A DNA stretch of 33,372 nucleotides from a virus (lineage: Duplodnaviria; Heunggongvirae; Uroviricota; Caudoviricetes): the IMG/VR virus record IMGVR_UViG_2534681662_000018. One strand, given 5' to 3'. Below are positions 10,135 to 23,066 of the stretch, piece after piece. Made by a program: the position numbers and the translations under genes. Position 1 is the first letter of the stretch. Each line of letters starts with the position of its first letter. The notes below the pieces were generated by a model. The model saw only the letters and a program-made list of their open reading frames with translations, made no database searches and had not been told where the DNA came from.

Positions 10135-10520
10135 CGGAAGATTTATTTGGTGATTTGCAGGATGACACCATCCTGGCACATCTTGACAATCCCGCCGAGG
10201 ATACGTCACGCTTTCCGGCACTGCTGGCGGAGCTGAACGATTTACTGCGCGGGGAATTGTCCCGGCTGGGTGTTGATCCTGCCCATTCACTGGAGATTGT
10301 TGTGGCTATCTGTAAGCATCTGGGCGGCGGTCAGGTCTACATTCCACGCGGTCAGGTTCTGGACTCGCTGATTCGGGATTTGCGTATCTGGAATGATTTT
10401 AACGGTCGCAACGTCAGCGAACTGACCACCCGTTATGGTGTCACTTTCAATACGGTATACAAAGCCATTCGCCGGATGCGACGGCTGAAATACCGCCAGT
10501 ACCAGCCCTCACTTCTGTAA
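10131..10520 (+). CDS. mor: Mor, middle operon regulator (129 aa)
   Basis: ORF 10131..10520; C-terminal region paralogous to protein C encoded at 11313 (shared FNGRN motif and HTH). Confidence 0.9.
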   Translation: MTEDLFGDLQDDTILAHLDNPAEDTSRFPALLAELNDLLRGELSRLGVDPAHSLEIVVAICKHLGGGQVYIPRGQVLDSLIRDLRIWNDFNGRNVSELTTRYGVTFNTVYKAIRRMRRLKYRQYQPSLL

Positions 10521-11312: not shown

Positions 11313-11735
11313 ATGCAGCATGATTTATTTGAACACGATCCGGCAATTCGCCAGTTAATCGGACATATTGATAACATCCCGGCCCCGGAACTGGAATCAC
11401 GCTGGCCCCGTTCGGTGGTTGATCTGATTGATGTTCTGGAAAACGAACTGAAACGCCAGAACGTCAGCAATCCCCGTGAGCTTGCCCGTAAACAGGCCGT
11501 TGCCCTGTCCTGTTTTCTGGGTGGGCGGCAGTTTTATATCCCCTGTGGCGATACTATCCTGACCGCGTTACGCGACGATTTGCTTTACTGCCAGTTCAAT
11601 GGTCGTAACATGGAAGAACTGCGTCGCCAGTACCGCCTGTCCCAGCCGCAGATCTACCAGATTATTGCCCGCCAGAGAAAGCTGCATACACGGCGTCATC
11701 AGCCTGATCTGTTCTCACCTGAAAGCCCAAAATAA
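11313..11735 (+). CDS. C: C, late transcription activator (140 aa)
   Basis: ORF 11313..11735; Mor paralogue; MQHDLFEHDPAIRQLIGHIDNIPAPELESRWPRS... Confidence 0.9.
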   Translation: MQHDLFEHDPAIRQLIGHIDNIPAPELESRWPRSVVDLIDVLENELKRQNVSNPRELARKQAVALSCFLGGRQFYIPCGDTILTALRDDLLYCQFNGRNMEELRRQYRLSQPQIYQIIARQRKLHTRRHQPDLFSPESPK

Positions 11736-11736
11736 C

Positions 11737-11762
11737 CGGCATCCTGCCGGTTATTTCCTGTC
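11737..11762 (+). terminator. Rho-independent terminator after C (end of middle transcript)
   Basis: CCGGCA-TCC-TGCCGG hairpin followed by TTATTTCC. Confidence 0.6.
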
Positions 11763-11826
11763 ACCATAATCCCGCACCTGTCACCTGATTTTTTAGACTG
11801 CCATCAGAGCATTTTTTCAGGGAAGC
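11763..11826 (+). promoter_or_regulatory. Late promoter Plys region (C-dependent)
   Basis: Contains CCCGCACCT at 11771-11779, the same 9-mer found at 19355-19363 upstream of I, at similar distance from the start codon. Confidence 0.55.
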
Positions 11827-12345
11827 ATGATGGCGGGGATACCAAAAAAACTGAAAGCCGCACTGCTGGCGGCAACGATTGCCGGTGGTGGTGTGGGTGG
11901 TTATCAGGAAATGACCCGTCAGTCTCTGATCCATCTGGAAAATATCGCTTATATGCCTTACCGCGATATTGCCGGTGTGCTTACGGTCTGTGTGGGACAT
12001 ACCGGACCGGATATCGAAATGCGCCGTTACAGCCATGCGGAGTGTATGGCTCTCCTCGACAGTGATTTAAAACCGGTTTATGCGGCAATCGATCGTCTTG
12101 TCAGGGTGCCGCTGACGCCATATCAGAAAACGGCGCTGGCAACGTTTATTTTCAACACCGGTGTTACCGCATTCAGTAAATCAACGCTGCTGAAAAAACT
12201 CAATGCCGGTGATTACGCCGGAGCGCGTGACCAGATGGCCCGCTGGGTGTTTGCCGCAGGCCATAAATGGAAAGGACTGATGAACCGTCGCGAAGTGGAA
12301 ATGGCAATCTGGAATATCAGGGGGGCGGATGACCTTCGCCAGTAA
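11827..12345 (+). CDS. lys: Endolysin with N-terminal hydrophobic signal-anchor-release-like segment (172 aa)
   Basis: ORF 11827..12345 (alternative ATG 11830); N-terminal KKLKAALLAATIAGGGVGGY followed by lysozyme-like region. Confidence 0.88.
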   Translation: MMAGIPKKLKAALLAATIAGGGVGGYQEMTRQSLIHLENIAYMPYRDIAGVLTVCVGHTGPDIEMRRYSHAECMALLDSDLKPVYAAIDRLVRVPLTPYQKTALATFIFNTGVTAFSKSTLLKKLNAGDYAGARDQMARWVFAAGHKWKGLMNRREVEMAIWNIRGADDLRQ

Positions 12346-17442: not shown

Positions 17443-18742
17443 TCTGGCGTATGCTGCACGCCTCCCGCCAAAGGAGGCTGTCGCGTATTTCCGCGCCAAA
17501 GGCTACAACATCACCTGGAACTGGTACGAACAACTGGCAGACGCGCACGCCCGCGCCTTTACCGTTGCCAAAGCCACCCGGATGGATGTCCTGACCACAA
17601 TCCGTGAGGAAGTGGAGCGGGCTGTCAGTGAAGGCATCACCCGTGAGGAATTTACCCGCACACTGGCCCCCCGGTTGCAAAAACTCGGATGGTGGGGAAA
17701 ACAAATCATCGTGGATGCAGACGGAAACGCAAAGGTAATCGAGCTGGGCAGTCCGCGTCGTCTGGCAACCATTTATAACGTCAATACCCGTACAGCGTAT
17801 GGGGCAGGACGTTATGCGCAGATGATGAATACCGCCGATTTGTACCCGTACTGGCAGTACGTTGCCGTTATGGATGGCAGAACACGCCCGGAACATGCGC
17901 GGCTGCACAATATGGTTTTCCGGTATGATGACATTTTCTGGCAGACGCATTACCCGCCCAATGGCTGGAACTGCCGCTGTCGCGTCCGGGCGGTGTCTGC
18001 GGCCCGCATGAAAGAACTGGGGCTACAGATCAGTTATGGTGCGTCATTCATGAATACCCGCGAAGTGGATGCCGGTACGGATGAAAGCACCGGAGAGATT
18101 TTCCGCACATCGTCAACCACGTTTGACAACGGTCGGGTAAAAATGACGCCGGATGTGGGCTGGTCATATAACCCCGGTTCGGCGGCATTTGGTACGGATC
18201 AGGCACTGATTCGAAAACTGGTGGAAATTCGCGACGCGCAGTTGCGTGAGCAGGTTGTTCAGACGCTGAATAACAGCCGGGAGCGTCAGCTTGCTTTTTC
18301 CCTCTGGCTTAAACGTCTGGCAGGATCACGTCAGACCGGTCATGAAATCCGGACACTGGGTTTTATGACGGAATCGGTAGCTGAAGCCGTACATCAGCGC
18401 ACCGGGAATATGCCAGCCCGTCTGCTTGTGATGAACGGGAAAAGTCTGGCGACCACTGCTGATGCCGCCCTGAAACCGGAGGATTTACAGCATCTGCCGT
18501 CGCTGATGGCAAAACCACAGGCAGTATTGTGGGACAGGGAGAACCACCAGTTGCTGTATGTTGTGGCAACCCGTGACGGCATGGCCCGGATTGTGGTCAG
18601 AACATCACAGACAGTCGGTAGGCAGAATGACCGTGCGGATGTGCTGGTCAGTATCAGCCGCGTATCTGCACAGTCGCTTGAAACCGCGATTGCTGACGGG
18701 ATGATTGACGTACTGGAGGGGCATGTGGAGGTGAATAAGTGA
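17423..18742 (+). CDS. F: MuF-family minor head / head morphogenesis protein (439 aa)
   Basis: In-frame ATG at 17423 (track ORF from 17387); position after portal; core motifs such as PEHARLHN and WNCRCR. Confidence 0.8.
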   Translation: MPQQTIDLAYAARLPPKEAVAYFRAKGYNITWNWYEQLADAHARAFTVAKATRMDVLTTIREEVERAVSEGITREEFTRTLAPRLQKLGWWGKQIIVDADGNAKVIELGSPRRLATIYNVNTRTAYGAGRYAQMMNTADLYPYWQYVAVMDGRTRPEHARLHNMVFRYDDIFWQTHYPPNGWNCRCRVRAVSAARMKELGLQISYGASFMNTREVDAGTDESTGEIFRTSSTTFDNGRVKMTPDVGWSYNPGSAAFGTDQALIRKLVEIRDAQLREQVVQTLNNSRERQLAFSLWLKRLAGSRQTGHEIRTLGFMTESVAEAVHQRTGNMPARLLVMNGKSLATTADAALKPEDLQHLPSLMAKPQAVLWDRENHQLLYVVATRDGMARIVVRTSQTVGRQNDRADVLVSISRVSAQSLETAIADGMIDVLEGHVEVNK

Positions 18743-19209
18743 GTCTTGATATGAACGTTGCCGTGGATGTGCGACGTATTCAGCTTGCACTGGATGAACT
18801 GGGAACCGTTACACGTGACCGCGCCATTCCCCGTGTGATGGCTGCGGCGCTGCTGTCATCCACGGAACAGGCATTTGAACGGCAGGCAGACCCGGATACA
18901 GGGAAAGGCTGGGAAGCGTGGAGCGATTCGTGGCAGGCATGGCGTCAGGATCATGGTTTTGTTCCGGGCAGTATCCTTACCCTGCATGGCGATCTGGCAC
19001 GCAGCATTACCACCGATTATGGACAGGATTATGCCCTGATTGGTTCGCCAAAAATTTATGCTGCCATTCATCAGTGGGGCGGTACACCCGATATGGCACC
19101 CCGCCCGGCAGGCGTTCCTGCGCGTCCTTATATGGGGCTGGATAAGACCGGGGAACAGGAAATTTTTGATGCCATCAGAAAACGCGTCAGCGCCGCTCTG
19201 AGGCAATAA
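18739..19209 (+). CDS. G: Virion morphogenesis protein G (156 aa)
   Basis: ORF 18739..19209, 4-nt overlap with F. Confidence 0.75.
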   Translation: MSLDMNVAVDVRRIQLALDELGTVTRDRAIPRVMAAALLSSTEQAFERQADPDTGKGWEAWSDSWQAWRQDHGFVPGSILTLHGDLARSITTDYGQDYALIGSPKIYAAIHQWGGTPDMAPRPAGVPARPYMGLDKTGEQEIFDAIRKRVSAALRQ

Positions 19210-19405
19210 ACTGAATCAGACATGAAATCAGCCGCACAGATTTTTTAAAACGCGCCACGGGATTTTTAAACCGGTATTTAACGGTGTATGAATCCCGTTT
19301 TATCTTCCTTCCACTTTCTTTCTCCATTACTCAAATAGCATAACCCCAGATTTTCCCGCACCTCCCGCAAACTGACTGCTCACAAACCATGATGAGCAGC
19401 AGGAC
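19210..19405 (+). promoter_or_regulatory. G-I intergenic region: late promoter PI (C-dependent) and the expected position of the Mu central strong gyrase site
   Basis: 196-bp non-coding gap at about 17.95-18.15 kb from the left end; CCCGCACCT at 19355-19363 matches the Plys region. Confidence 0.6.
19258..19306 (+). terminator. Candidate terminator hairpin after G (end of the lys operon)
   Basis: CGGGATT ... AATCCCG inverted repeat (19258-19264 / 19291-19297) followed by TTTTATCTT; the loop is long (26 nt). Confidence 0.45.
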
Positions 19406-20491
19406 ATGAAAAAACACGCGATTGGCATTGCCGCACTGAGTGCGCTGTCCATTGACGATGACGGCTGGTGCCAGCTATTGCCTGCCGGTCATTTCAGTGC
19501 CCGTGATGGTCGTCCGTTTGATGTGACAGACGGTCAGGGGTGGTTCATCGACGGTGAGATTGCCGGGCGTCTGGTTGAAGGCGTTCGCGCGCTCAACCAG
19601 GACGTGCTGATTGATTACGAGCATAACCAGCTACGTAAGGACAAAGGATTACCCCCGGAACAACTCGTCGCGGCTGGCTGGTTTAACGCCGATGAAATGC
19701 AGTGGCGTGAAGGTGAAGGGTTATTTATCCACCCACGCTGGACGGCGGCGGCCCAGCAGCGCATCGATGACGGCGAATTTGGTTATCTCTCTGCGGTTTT
19801 TCCGTATGACACCGCCACCGGTGCGGTGCTGCAAATCCGCCTTGCTGCGCTGACCAATGACCCCGGTGCCACCGGCATGAAAAAGCTGACCGCACTGGCG
19901 GCAGACCTTCCCGACATCCTTCAACAGGAGAACAAACCCATGAATGAAACGCTGCGCAAGCTGCTTGCGCGTCTTGGGGTGACGGTCCCCGAAAATGCAG
20001 ACATCACCGATGAACAGGCCAGCGCGGCCCTGAGTGCGCTTGATGCGCTCGAAACAGATGCCGGAAAAGTGGCGTCGTTATCCGCCGAACTGGAAAAGGC
20101 ACAGAAAGCCGCCGTTGACCTGACGAAATACGTCCCGGTGGAAAGCTACAACGCCCTGCGTGATGAACTGGCACAGGCGACTGCACTAAGCGCCACAGCC
20201 AGCCTGAGCGCCGTTCTGGACAAGGCGGAACAGGAAGGCCGCATTTTCAAAAGCGAACGTGCCTATCTGGAACAGCTTGGCGGTCAGATTGGCGTGGCGG
20301 CACTGTCGGCACAGCTTGAGAAAAAACAGCCCATCGCTGCGTTATCTGCCATGCAGACCACCACAGCGAAAATCCCGTCGCAGGAAAAAACGGCTGTGGC
20401 GGTGCTGTCTGCTGATGAACAGGCAGCAGTGAAGGCGCTCGGCATTACAGAGGCTGAGTATCTGAAAATGAAACAGGAACAAGAAAAATGA
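19406..20491 (+). CDS. I: Head protease / scaffold protein I (361 aa)
   Basis: ORF 19406..20491 directly upstream of the major head gene; N-terminal region consistent with prohead protease, C-terminal helical Ala/Glu-rich scaffold-like region. Confidence 0.85.
   Translation: MKKHAIGIAALSALSIDDDGWCQLLPAGHFSARDGRPFDVTDGQGWFIDGEIAGRLVEGVRALNQDVLIDYEHNQLRKDKGLPPEQLVAAGWFNADEMQWREGEGLFIHPRWTAAAQQRIDDGEFGYLSAVFPYDTATGAVLQIRLAALTNDPGATGMKKLTALAADLPDILQQENKPMNETLRKLLARLGVTVPENADITDEQASAALSALDALETDAGKVASLSAELEKAQKAAVDLTKYVPVESYNALRDELAQATALSATASLSAVLDKAEQEGRIFKSERAYLEQLGGQIGVAALSAQLEKKQPIAALSAMQTTTAKIPSQEKTAVAVLSADEQAAVKALGITEAEYLKMKQEQEK
19940..20491 (+). CDS. Z: Scaffold protein Z from an in-frame internal start within I (183 aa)
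   Basis: In-frame ATG at 19940 preceded by CAGGAG (19924-19929); C-terminal helical region. Confidence 0.5.
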   Translation: MNETLRKLLARLGVTVPENADITDEQASAALSALDALETDAGKVASLSAELEKAQKAAVDLTKYVPVESYNALRDELAQATALSATASLSAVLDKAEQEGRIFKSERAYLEQLGGQIGVAALSAQLEKKQPIAALSAMQTTTAKIPSQEKTAVAVLSADEQAAVKALGITEAEYLKMKQEQEK

Positions 20492-21882: not shown

Positions 21883-22304
21883 ATTACGCGACAGTAAATG
21901 ACCTGTGCGCCCGCTATACACGTACGCGGCTGGATATTCTCACCCGCCCTAAAACAGCGGACGGGCAGCCGGATGATGCCGTGGCAGAACAGGCACTGGC
22001 AGATGCTTCGGCCTTTATTGATGGCTATCTCGCCGCGCGCTTTGTTCTGCCGCTTACCGTCGTCCCCTCACTGCTGAAACGGCAGTGTTGCGTGGTGGCC
22101 TGGTTTTATCTGAATGAATCACAACCCACCGAGCAGATCACCGCTGCCTACAGGGACACAGTGCGCTGGCTGGAACAGGTGCGCGATGGCAAAACAGATC
22201 CCGGCGTGGAAAGCAGGACGGCAGCCTCGCCGGATGGTGAAAACCTTGTGCAGGTGCAGTCTGACGCGCCGGTCTTCTCACGAAAACAGAAGGGGTTTAT
22301 CTGA
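21879..22304 (+). CDS. J: Head-tail joining protein J (141 aa)
   Basis: ORF 21879..22304, 4-nt overlap with the upstream gene. Confidence 0.65.
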   Translation: MNYATVNDLCARYTRTRLDILTRPKTADGQPDDAVAEQALADASAFIDGYLAARFVLPLTVVPSLLKRQCCVVAWFYLNESQPTEQITAAYRDTVRWLEQVRDGKTDPGVESRTAASPDGENLVQVQSDAPVFSRKQKGFI

Positions 22305-22852
22305 TGCTGGAAGAAACCGAAGCCGCACTGCTGGCGCGCGTTCGTGAGTTGTTTGGGGCAACCCTGCGGCAGGTGGAACCCATTACCGGCACATGGACTA
22401 ACGAGGATGTGCACCGTCTCTTTCTGGCCCCGCCATCGGTATTTCTGGCATGGATGGGCTGTGGTGAGGGGCGTACGCGTCGGGAAGTTGAAAGTCGCTG
22501 GGCATTTTTTGTCGTGGCGGAGTTGCTGAACGGGGAACCGGTAAACCGGCCCGGTATTTATCAGATTGTGGAGCGACTGATTGCCGGTGTTAACGGTCAG
22601 ACGTTTGGCCCGACCACCGGGATGAGACTGACGCAGGTCAGAAATCTTTGTGACGACAACCGTATCAATGCCGGTGTGGTGCTTTACGGCGTTCTGTTCA
22701 GTGGCACTACCCCGCTGCCGTCTGTGGTGGACATGGATTCGCTGGATGATTACGAGCGTCACTGGCAGACCTGGAAACTCCCGGCCGAAACCCCGGAATT
22801 TGCCGCACATATCAATGTGAATCAGGAAAAGGATAATGATGCTGAAAATTAA
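22304..22852 (+). CDS. K: Tail/head completion protein K (182 aa)
   Basis: ORF 22304..22852; TGATG overlap with J. Confidence 0.65.
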   Translation: MLEETEAALLARVRELFGATLRQVEPITGTWTNEDVHRLFLAPPSVFLAWMGCGEGRTRREVESRWAFFVVAELLNGEPVNRPGIYQIVERLIAGVNGQTFGPTTGMRLTQVRNLCDDNRINAGVVLYGVLFSGTTPLPSVVDMDSLDDYERHWQTWKLPAETPEFAAHINVNQEKDNDAEN

Positions 22853-23066
22853 ACCCGCAGAGGGAAAAACCATCCGTGACCCGCTCACGATGGAATTACT
22901 GGCGCCTGAGGGAGAAGAAAAGCCCCGTAACAGTTTCTGGATACGTCGCCTTGTAGCCGGTGATGTGGTTGAAGTCGGGAGCACCGAAAACACTGATGTG
23001 GTTGAAGTCGGGAGCACCGAAAACACGGCGGATGATACCGACGCTGCGCTGAAAAAAACGGAGTAA
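22836..23066 (+). CDS. Small late protein upstream of sheath (76 aa) containing an in-frame 11-aa tandem duplication
   Basis: ORF 22836..23066; VVEVGSTENTD and VVEVGSTENTA encoded by the tandem 33-bp repeat. Confidence 0.55.
   Translation: MMLKIKPAEGKTIRDPLTMELLAPEGEEKPRNSFWIRRLVAGDVVEVGSTENTDVVEVGSTENTADDTDAALKKTE
22962..23027 (+). repeat. Perfect-but-one 33-bp direct tandem repeat, 2 copies (GATGTGGTTGAAGTCGGGAGCACCGAAAACAC)
   Basis: Copy 1 at 22962-22994 and copy 2 at 22995-23027 are identical except the last base (T vs G); in frame within the 76-aa ORF. Confidence 0.9.

What the first reader, a model, noticed from the sequence alone, without database searches (positions are those of the whole stretch)
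11771..11779. Identical 9-mer CCCGCACCT upstream of both lys and I, a likely core of C-dependent late promoters
CCCGCACCT occurs at 11771-11779 (48 nt before the lys ATG) and at 19355-19363 (43 nt before the I ATG). In both places it sits in a non-coding region at the head of a late operon. Mu late promoters are known to precede lys and I and to depend on protein C, so this shared element is a candidate recognition or -35-replacing determinant.
Basis: partly seen in the sequence, partly recalled or inferred. Interest (0 to 1): 0.4.

Follow-up and report, generated by a model that had tools for sequence, protein, structure and literature searches.

The report
Off-register 10-mer in Mu late promoters
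The repeated CCCGCACCT is real and lies inside two well-studied phage Mu late promoters, but it sits 10 bp apart in promoter register, so it is not the activator C recognition core, and the match is already marked in the literature.

Summary
The window is a Mu/D108-like prophage (98-99.7% identical) in the E. coli chromosome. CCCGCACCT occurs exactly twice, at the stated coordinates. The match is really a 10-mer, TCCCGCACCT.

Both copies lie in the known C-dependent late promoters Plys and PI. Aligned by their -10 hexamers and mapped start sites, the 9-mer is at -35..-27 in Plys but at -25..-17 in PI. It is absent from PP and Pmom.

The element shared in register is CATAAYCCC at -41..-33. It occurs exactly three times in the window, once in each late promoter, always 20 nt before the -10 hexamer. 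It is the promoter-proximal part of the published C site: a 16-bp dyad centred at -43.5, TTAT-N5-6-ATAA, with a -55..-30 footprint and -52..-34 required.

Orthologous promoters of eight or more diverged Mu-like lineages keep the box, spacing and -10. They do not keep the 10-mer. Close relatives carry substitutions inside the PI copy.

The off-register match is modestly non-random (p about 0.003 for this pair, 0.015 for any of six pairs). Swapna et al. [quoted passage not shown]

The parts
11313..11735 (+). Gene C, the late-gene activator of the Mor/C family.
   Evidence: Pfam PF08765 Mor, E=9e-34. The region is 99.7% identical to D108 and 98.2% to Mu across C-lys.
11753..11819 (+). Late promoter Plys in the 67-column frame used here (col 1 = 11753). 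The -10 hexamer TAGACT is at 11794-11799 and the inferred +1 is at 11806.
   Evidence: Equivalent to AF083977 promoter feature 10403-10469, 'Late promoter activated by C, PMID 2522923'. The +1 was inferred from the Swapna 2015 oligonucleotide design.
11755..11770 (+). Position of the published 16-bp C-binding dyad at Plys (-51..-36). The mutationally required 19 bp (-52..-34) correspond to 11754-11772, and the DNase I footprint (about -55..-30) to about 11751-11776.
   Evidence: Coordinates were transferred from Jiang & Howe 2008 through the frame. The site itself was not assayed here.
11765..11773 (+). CATAATCCC, the conserved late-promoter box at Plys (-41..-33).
   Evidence: CATAAYCCC occurs three times in the window, all in late promoters. 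It is conserved in register in orthologues.
11770..11779 (+). It covers the -35-hexamer position, CCCGCA, 17 bp upstream of TAGACT.
   Evidence: Only TCCC is conserved in orthologues; columns 22-27 carry 0.45 bit.
19327..19393 (+). Late promoter PI in the same 67-column frame. The -10 hexamer CAAACT is at 19368-19373 and the inferred +1 is at 19380.
   Evidence: Equivalent to AF083977 promoter feature 17977-18043. Register.
19339..19347 (+). CATAACCCC, the conserved late-promoter box at PI (-41..-33).
19354..19363 (+). TCCCGCACCT, the PI copy of the 10-mer, at -26..-17. It lies in the C-rich spacer between the box and the -10 hexamer and is followed by a second CCCGCA (19364-19369).
   Evidence: It is not conserved: columns 29-37 carry 0.33 bit. 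Natural substitutions fall inside it in L044 and in E. coli RMDEC465.
28686..28752 (+). Late promoter PP, inside gene N. The box CATAACCCC is at 28698-28706, the -10 hexamer TATCCT at 28727-28732 and the inferred +1 at 28739. It has no copy of the 9-mer.

Best explanation
The two copies of (T)CCCGCACCT lie inside the classical C-dependent late promoters Plys and PI of a Mu/D108-type prophage, but they are not a common functional core. How these promoters work is established for Mu and inferred here by 98-99% identity. Activator C binds an imperfect dyad (TTAT-N5-6-ATAA, centred at -43.5, footprint about -55..-30). The promoter-proximal half of that site, plus a CCC extension, is the box CATAAYCCC at -41..-33. 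Sigma-70 RNA polymerase uses a TAnnnT-like -10 hexamer exactly 20 nt downstream of the box, and there is no -35 consensus. In Plys the 10-mer starts inside this box and runs through the -35 position (-36..-27). Its first bases are therefore functional as part of the box and of the C-proximal flank, and the remainder is spacer. In PI the same word lies one helical turn further downstream (-26..-17), in a C-rich spacer and outside the expected C footprint. The identity is most likely a lineage-specific coincidence. It is favoured by the shared CCC motif and by the C-rich, G-poor top-strand composition of these spacers, or it is a historical accident. It carries no sequence-specific role of its own.
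For: The window is 98-99.7% identical to D108 and Mu over both regions. AF083977 annotates four 67-bp late promoters. Printed together, they align with the -10 hexamers at columns 42-47 and CATAAC(C)CC at columns 13-21, while the 9-mer is at columns 19-27 in Plys and 29-37 in PI. In the published 92-mer promoter oligonucleotides, designed with 20 nt downstream of the mapped start, ATAA is at position 31 and the -10 at 59-64 in all three promoters. The gap from the 9-mer to the -10 is 14 nt in lys and 4 nt in I. CATAAYCCC occurs exactly three times in 33 kb, once per late promoter (expected 0.5; 1 of 100 shuffles reach three). The literature gives a dyad centred at -43.5, a footprint of -30..-55 and a required block of -52..-34. 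It also gives the consensus TTAT-N5-6-ATAA, and places C upstream of the -35 element with sigma region 4 at -35 in the cryo-EM complex on Pmom. Phylogenetic footprinting used 15 non-redundant promoters from Mu, IMG/VR relatives (C 54-67% identical, I 50-77%, Lys 78-84%) and Erwinia/Kluyvera prophages. All keep the box, then 20 nt, then the -10. Information content is 1.36 bit per column for the box, 0.45 for columns 22-27 and 0.33 for columns 29-37, and no orthologue matches the 10-mer at more than 7 of 10 positions anywhere. In eight paired Plys/PI sets from five other lineages, the only shared words of 7 nt or more are in register: the C site, up to 21 bp, and AAACCCA. Within the Mu clade, three of the four PI polymorphisms seen fall inside the 10-mer (columns 28 and 34 in L044, column 37 in E. 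coli RMDEC465). PI-type spacers are 46% C on the top strand, which raises the chance of C-rich matches.
Against: A 10-bp exact match between two 67-bp promoters is not expected by chance alone (p about 0.003 for the pair, 0.015 for any of six pairs). The offset is exactly 10 bp, one helical turn, which would keep a bound factor on the same face of the DNA. The Plys copy is invariant in all close relatives seen, but they are 97% or more identical overall, so this says little. I could not read the primary mutagenesis paper (Chiang & Howe 1993), so the statement that -33..-27 is dispensable rests on the summary in Jiang & Howe 2008. No C footprint at PI is available in what I could read.
Confidence: 0.8

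Rival explanations
1. One reading: CCCGCACCT is the shared core of C-dependent late promoters, recognised by C or replacing the -35 hexamer in both Plys and PI.
For: Both copies are in C-dependent promoters. At Plys the word covers the -35 position, and 6 of its 9 bases lie under the published footprint edge (-35..-30). Its first two C's lie within the required -52..-34 block.
Against: The two copies are 10 bp out of register. The word is absent from PP and Pmom, which are equally C-dependent. The C dyad lies upstream, at -51..-36. The word is not conserved in orthologous promoters that keep an identical CATAAYCCC box. The PI copy tolerates natural substitutions.
Confidence: 0.03
2. The 10-mer is a real second element specific to the Mu/D108 clade. 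It would be a spacer sequence, phased one helical turn apart, that tunes DNA distortion or open-complex formation at Plys and PI, or binds an unknown factor.
For: The match is statistically modestly unlikely. The offset is exactly 10 bp. Plys and PI, along with PP, are activated at the isomerisation step, unlike Pmom. Bases immediately downstream of the dyad are reported to matter for activation.
Against: PP shares the isomerisation mechanism but lacks the word. There is no conservation outside the clade, and polymorphisms fall inside the PI copy. The reported required region in Plys ends at -34. Other lineages show no comparable out-of-register match.
Confidence: 0.1
3. The match is a historical trace with no present sequence-specific function. 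It would have arisen by short-patch recombination or copying between the two promoters, or by a 10-bp insertion in PI that displaced an ancestral ATAA-TCCCGCACCT arrangement.
For: With flanks included, the Plys sequence CATAATCCCGCACCT and the PI sequence GATTTTCCCGCACCT agree at 12 of 15 positions. The match is restricted to one clade.
Against: The box-to-(-10) spacing of 20 nt is identical in every PI orthologue, so there is no sign of a 10-bp indel. The match has sharp edges and no extended similarity. This reading cannot be told apart from chance with the available data.
Confidence: 0.07

Closest known systems
Bacteriophage Mu late promoters Plys and PI (Margolin, Rao & Howe 1989, PMID 2522923, as annotated in AF083977).
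   Same: The sequences are essentially the same. The window's Plys differs from Mu's at 2 of 67 positions and its PI at 1 of 67. Position relative to C/lys and G/I, the -10 hexamers and the box are all the same.
   Different: Nothing material. The window is a D108-like prophage in an E. coli chromosome. One Plys substitution (C to T at column 29) creates a perfect CCTGTCACC direct repeat that Mu lacks.
C-binding site of Mu late promoters: an imperfect 16-bp dyad centred at -43.5, TTAT-N5-6-ATAA (Chiang & Howe 1993; Sun, Hattman & Kool 1997; cited).
   Same: The 9-mer lies next to this site at Plys. It starts 1 nt after the ATAA half-site, and its first CCC completes the conserved CATAAYCCC box.
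   Different: The 9-mer is not part of the dyad. In PI it starts 11 nt after ATAA, and it is missing from PP and Pmom.
[quoted passage not shown] 1B of Swapna, Kumari & Nagaraja 2015 (PMC4461284).
   Same: It is the same observation. TCCCGCACCT is the only 10-bp word shared by the two promoters.
   Different: That paper marks the match but assigns it no function. The present analysis adds that it is out of register and not conserved in orthologous promoters.
Mor-dependent middle promoter Pm of Mu (16-bp dyad centred at -43.5, no good -35).
   Same: It has the same architecture: a Mor/C-family activator site overlapping -35 upstream of a sigma-70 -10 hexamer.
   Different: The activator and site sequence differ. 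It was not examined in the window.

Membership tests
Mu-type C-dependent late promoter (applied to the regions that hold the 9-mer) | Lies just upstream of a late operon (lys; I; within N before P) in a Mu-like genome that encodes a Mor/C-family activator. | tested here: met
   Pfam assignments for C, Lys, I and G. Synteny and 98-99.7% identity to Mu and D108.
Mu-type C-dependent late promoter (applied to the regions that hold the 9-mer) | A recognisable -10 hexamer (TAnnnT-like) with no sigma-70 -35 consensus. | tested here: met
   TAGACT, CAAACT and TATCCT sit at columns 42-47. The consensus sigma-70 scan finds no promoter in either region.
Mu-type C-dependent late promoter (applied to the regions that hold the 9-mer) | A conserved ccATAAcCcC box at a fixed distance upstream of the -10 hexamer. 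| tested here: met
   CATAAYCCC occurs three times in the window, each 20 nt before the -10. The same spacing is found in all orthologues.
Mu-type C-dependent late promoter (applied to the regions that hold the 9-mer) | Transcription depends on C protein. | not testable with these tools
   Shown experimentally for Mu. Inferred here from near-identity.
C recognition element (is the 9-mer itself the C site or its core?) | Lies within the dyad at -51..-36, or within the required block at -52..-34. | tested here: not met
   The 9-mer is at -35..-27 in Plys, so only two bases overlap the required block. In PI it is at -25..-17.
C recognition element (is the 9-mer itself the C site or its core?) | Sits at the same position relative to the -10 hexamer and +1 in the different late promoters. 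| tested here: not met
   The two copies are offset by 10 bp, with gaps to the -10 of 14 and 4 nt.
C recognition element (is the 9-mer itself the C site or its core?) | Is present in all C-dependent promoters. | tested here: not met
   The best match to the 10-mer is 6 of 10 in PP and 5 of 10 in Pmom.
C recognition element (is the 9-mer itself the C site or its core?) | Is conserved in orthologous promoters of related phages. | tested here: not met
   Information content is 0.45 bit (columns 22-27) and 0.33 bit (columns 29-37), against 1.36 bit for the box. Spacers differ in lineages that keep the box identical.
-35 element or -35 substitute | A hexamer 16-18 bp upstream of the -10 hexamer, in both promoters. 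| tested here: inconclusive
   In Plys, CCCGCA is exactly 17 bp upstream of TAGACT, so it occupies the -35 position, but it matches TTGACA at only 2 of 6. In PI the 9-mer is 4 bp from the -10, and the -35 position holds CCCAGA.

The most novel reading that the evidence does not exclude
The 10-mer is a genuine auxiliary element specific to the Mu/D108 clade. Placed one helical turn apart in Plys and PI, it would lie on the same DNA face and tune C-dependent open-complex formation or bind an unidentified factor, separately from the C dyad.
Probability: 0.07. Interest if true: 0.3.

Novelty: already known. Interest (0 to 1): 0.08.

Why it matters
It matters little beyond getting the annotation right. 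The Mu late promoters, their C-binding dyad and even this 10-bp lys/I match are already in the literature. The useful result is negative. The repeated word should not be annotated as the C box. The element that actually marks C-dependent promoters in this window is CATAAYCCC followed by 20 nt and a -10 hexamer. It identifies Plys, PI and PP with no false positives in 33 kb, and it transfers to diverged Mu-like prophages. If the 10-mer did prove functional, it would be a small refinement of how spacer DNA modulates a Mor/C-type activator.

Tried and rejected
- **Primary papers:** Margolin 1989 (PMID 2522923 / PMC209851) and Chiang & Howe 1993 (PMC1205707) are not held in the library. Register and functional limits were taken instead from the AF083977 annotation, Jiang & Howe 2008, the Swapna 2015 oligonucleotide table and the 2026 PNAS paper.
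- **Genome scan:** a genome-contig scan with a C-protein alignment returned only 5 loci, from Erwinia and Kluyvera. They were useful but too few, so the diversity came mainly from IMG/VR.
- **Consensus scans:** sigma-70 promoter and terminator scans of both regions found nothing. That is consistent with activator-dependent promoters but otherwise uninformative.
- **A second promoter in PI:** I asked whether PI could use a second promoter in register with the 10-mer. I rejected this because the hexamer 14 nt downstream of the PI copy is GCTCAC, with no A2/T6. All PI orthologues also keep box, 20 nt and nAAAAT.
- **A longer degenerate repeat:** I asked whether the 10-mer is part of one. The flanks match at only about 3 of 8 and 3 of 10 positions, so the edges are sharp.
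- **A reading on the minus strand:** the only overlapping ORF, 11761-12036(-), is a spurious antisense ORF inside lys. I did not pursue it.
- **E. coli prophage population:** 41 of 5,426 genomes carry the promoters. They are too similar to test constraint, apart from a few informative variants.
- **Full-text search:** the 10-mer turned up in a Mu context only in Swapna 2015.

Full report
**What the window is.** Megablast of both regions finds Escherichia phages D108 and Mu, SfMu and Yersinia Mu-like phages at 98-99.8% identity. Bases 1-1259 are E. coli chromosomal DNA, from an inverse-autotransporter/LysM gene. The canonical Mu left end, TGTATTGATTCACTTGAAG, starts at 1260. The window is therefore a Mu/D108-type prophage from attL to about Mu coordinate 32.1 kb, and mom and Pmom lie beyond its end. 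The genes next to the finding are C (11313-11735, Pfam Mor family), lys (11827/11830-12345, phage lysozyme), G (18739-19209) and I (19406-20491, Mu-like prophage I protease).

**The observation.** CCCGCACCT occurs exactly twice, at 11771-11779 and 19355-19363 on the + strand. These positions are 48 nt and 43 nt before the lys and I ATGs, and both are intergenic. The identity is really 10 bp, TCCCGCACCT, with sharp edges.

A repeated 9-mer is not remarkable in itself. The window has 3,845 distinct same-strand repeated 9-mers and 1,150 maximal repeats of 10 bp or more. What is unusual is that both copies fall inside two short late promoters. Shuffles that keep the box and the -10 fixed give P = 0.0026 for an out-of-register match of 10 or more between Plys and PI. 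The value is 0.015 for any of the six pairs of Mu late promoters. For a match of 9 or more the values are 0.013 and 0.06. The match is modestly non-random.

**Register.** The curated Mu record AF083977 annotates four 67-bp late promoters, citing PMID 2522923: Plys 10403-10469, PI 17977-18043, PP 27287-27353 and Pmom 35693-35759. Printed one above the other, they align without gaps. The -10 hexamers TAGACT, CAAACT, TATCCT and TAAGAT fall at columns 42-47. The conserved CATAAT/CCCC (AATAACCAC in Pmom) falls at columns 13-21.

The window equivalents are 11753-11819, 19327-19393 and 28686-28752. An independent check comes from the promoter oligonucleotides of Swapna et al. 2015, designed with 20 nt downstream of the S1-mapped start. 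They have ATAA at oligonucleotide position 31 and the -10 hexamer at 59-64 in all three promoters. This puts +1 at column 54, which is window 11806, 19380 and 28739.

In this frame the 9-mer is at -35..-27 in Plys, 14 nt before the -10. In PI it is at -25..-17, 4 nt before the -10. That is a 10-bp offset. PP and Pmom have no copy; their best matches to the 10-mer are 6 of 10 and 5 of 10.

**What is shared in register.** CATAAYCCC occurs exactly three times in the 33-kb window, at 11765, 19339 and 28698. That is once in each late promoter present, always 20 nt before the -10 hexamer. The expected count is 0.5, and 1 of 100 shuffles reach three.

From memory, and not verifiable with the tools here, the abstract of Margolin et al. 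1989 gives the conserved -35-region sequence as ccATAAcCcCPu(G/C)ac. My alignment reproduces this: CCATAATCCCGCAC, GCATAACCCCAGAT, CCATAACCCCGGAC and CAATAACCACACTC. The 5' part of the Plys 9-mer (CCCGCAC) is therefore the 3' tail of that consensus. At PI the in-register equivalent is CCCCAGAT, not the 9-mer.

**Published C site.**
- Jiang & Howe 2008 (PMC2582627) report that C binds a 16-bp imperfect dyad centred at -43.5.
- In the same paper, DNase I protection at Plys and Pmom spans about -30 to -55.
- Their summary of the single-base mutagenesis of Plys says that, besides the -10, a 19-bp block from -52 to -34 is required.
- The 2026 PNAS paper quotes the consensus TTAT-N5-6-ATAA.
- The 2025 cryo-EM preprint, working on Pmom, places the C tetramer on nearly three helical turns upstream of the non-optimal -35 element. 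Sigma-70 region 4 sits at the -35 element.

Mapped onto the window, the dyad is 11755-11770 at Plys and, by homology, 19329-19344 at PI. The Plys 9-mer overlaps the required block by two bases (-35, -34) and the footprint edge by six. The PI copy lies wholly outside both.

**Phylogenetic footprinting.** IMG/VR searches used C, I and Lys as queries, and one GTDB genome scan was run. Together they gave orthologous Plys and PI regions from relatives with C 54-67%, I 50-77% and Lys 78-84% identical. Every one except two very distant PI loci shows a box, 20 nt and a -10 hexamer in the same register.

Over 15 non-redundant promoters the information content per column was as follows:

| Region | Bit per column |
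|---|---|
| Box (columns 13-21) | 1.36 |
| Dyad columns | 1.01 |
| -10 hexamer | 1.01 |
| Columns 22-27 (rest of the Plys 9-mer) | 0.45 |
| Columns 29-37 (PI 9-mer) | 0.33 |

No orthologue matches the 10-mer at more than 7 of 10 positions anywhere. Lineages that keep an identical box have unrelated spacers. Plys L092 reads CATAATCCCtttctaatc, and PI L046 reads CATAACCCCacccaatatccgctg.

In eight Plys/PI pairs from five other lineages the only shared words of 7 nt or more are in register. One is the C site itself, up to 21 bp (TCAGATACCGGAATCCCCGAT) in the Erwinia-type lineage. None of these pairs has an out-of-register match.

Within the Mu clade, three of the four polymorphic PI positions seen fall inside the 10-mer. 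These are columns 28 and 34 in L044, and the last T changed to A in E. coli RMDEC465. The Plys copy is invariant, but those genomes are 97% or more identical, so this carries little weight. PI-type spacers are 46% C on the top strand. This compositional trait, rather than a specific sequence, appears to be the conserved property, and it makes C-rich coincidences more likely.

**Mechanism.** The following is shown for Mu and inferred here. C binds the dyad at about -55..-30. Sigma-70 RNA polymerase uses the -10 hexamer. At Plys, PI and PP, C acts at isomerisation to the open complex. The Plys 10-mer begins in the box and covers the -35 position. The PI 10-mer is spacer DNA.

I judge the identity to be a lineage-specific coincidence or a historical trace (confidence 0.8). 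A small residual possibility is a helically phased auxiliary element (about 0.07-0.1).

**Novelty.** The promoters and the C site are textbook Mu biology. The legend of Fig. 1B in Swapna et al. [quoted passage not shown] [is] underlined". A full-text search for the 10-mer finds no other Mu paper. The only additions here are that the match is out of register and not conserved. The finding is ordinary and of low interest.

Noticed in passing
window 1-1259 and 1260: The first 1,259 bases are E. coli chromosomal DNA from an inverse-autotransporter/LysM-domain gene (99.8% identical; found in 5,065 of 5,426 genomes). The Mu left end TGTATTGATTCACTTGAAG starts at 1260. The window is therefore an integrated Mu/D108-like prophage that interrupts that gene.
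   Followed up: partly
window 22961-23026 (ORF 22836-23066): A perfect 33-bp tandem duplication (TGATGTGGTTGAAGTCGGGAGCACCGAAAACAC, two copies) lies inside the homologue of Mu gp38, the 'putative sheath terminator protein'. It adds an in-frame DVVEVGSTENT. Mu has a single copy, and the C-terminal tail of the protein also differs.
   Followed up: partly
window 11757-11765 and 11777-11785: Plys in this window has a perfect 9-bp direct repeat, CCTGTCACC, with the copies 20 bp apart on either side of the box. The second copy is CCTGCCACC in Mu and CCTGCCATC in most relatives. It is therefore not conserved and is probably incidental.
   Followed up: yes
window 19355-19369: PI carries CCCGCA twice, 9 bp apart (CCCGCAcctCCCGCA), immediately before and overlapping the -10 hexamer CAAACT. 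This is part of a C-rich top-strand spacer (46% C) that is a general feature of PI orthologues.
   Followed up: partly
window 11855-11871 and 22320-22336: A 17-bp identical word, AAGCCGCACTGCTGGCG (encoding KAALLA), occurs near the 5' ends of lys and of ORF 22304-22852, which corresponds to Mu K. In lys it falls in the signal-arrest-release region. It is the second longest direct repeat in the window. Whether it is chance or a shared hydrophobic N-terminal coding motif was not examined.
   Followed up: no
L026-L028, L054-L059, L066-L069 (Erwinia/Kluyvera-type Mu-like prophages): In this lineage the late-promoter box is CGGAATC(C/A)C within a near-palindrome, GATACCGGAATC. Plys and PI share up to 21 bp in register (TCAGATACCGGAATCCCCGAT). 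This looks like a variant C-site specificity that goes with a C protein 64-67% identical to Mu C.
   Followed up: partly
E. coli complete genomes: Mu-type Plys and PI promoters occur in 41 of 5,426 complete E. coli genomes (48 places, all chromosomal). This gives a rough prevalence of Mu-like prophages.
   Followed up: no
window 11827-11832: lys begins with a tandem ATGATG. The mechanical ORF starts at 11827, whereas the curated Mu annotation starts at the second ATG, equivalent to 11830.
   Followed up: no
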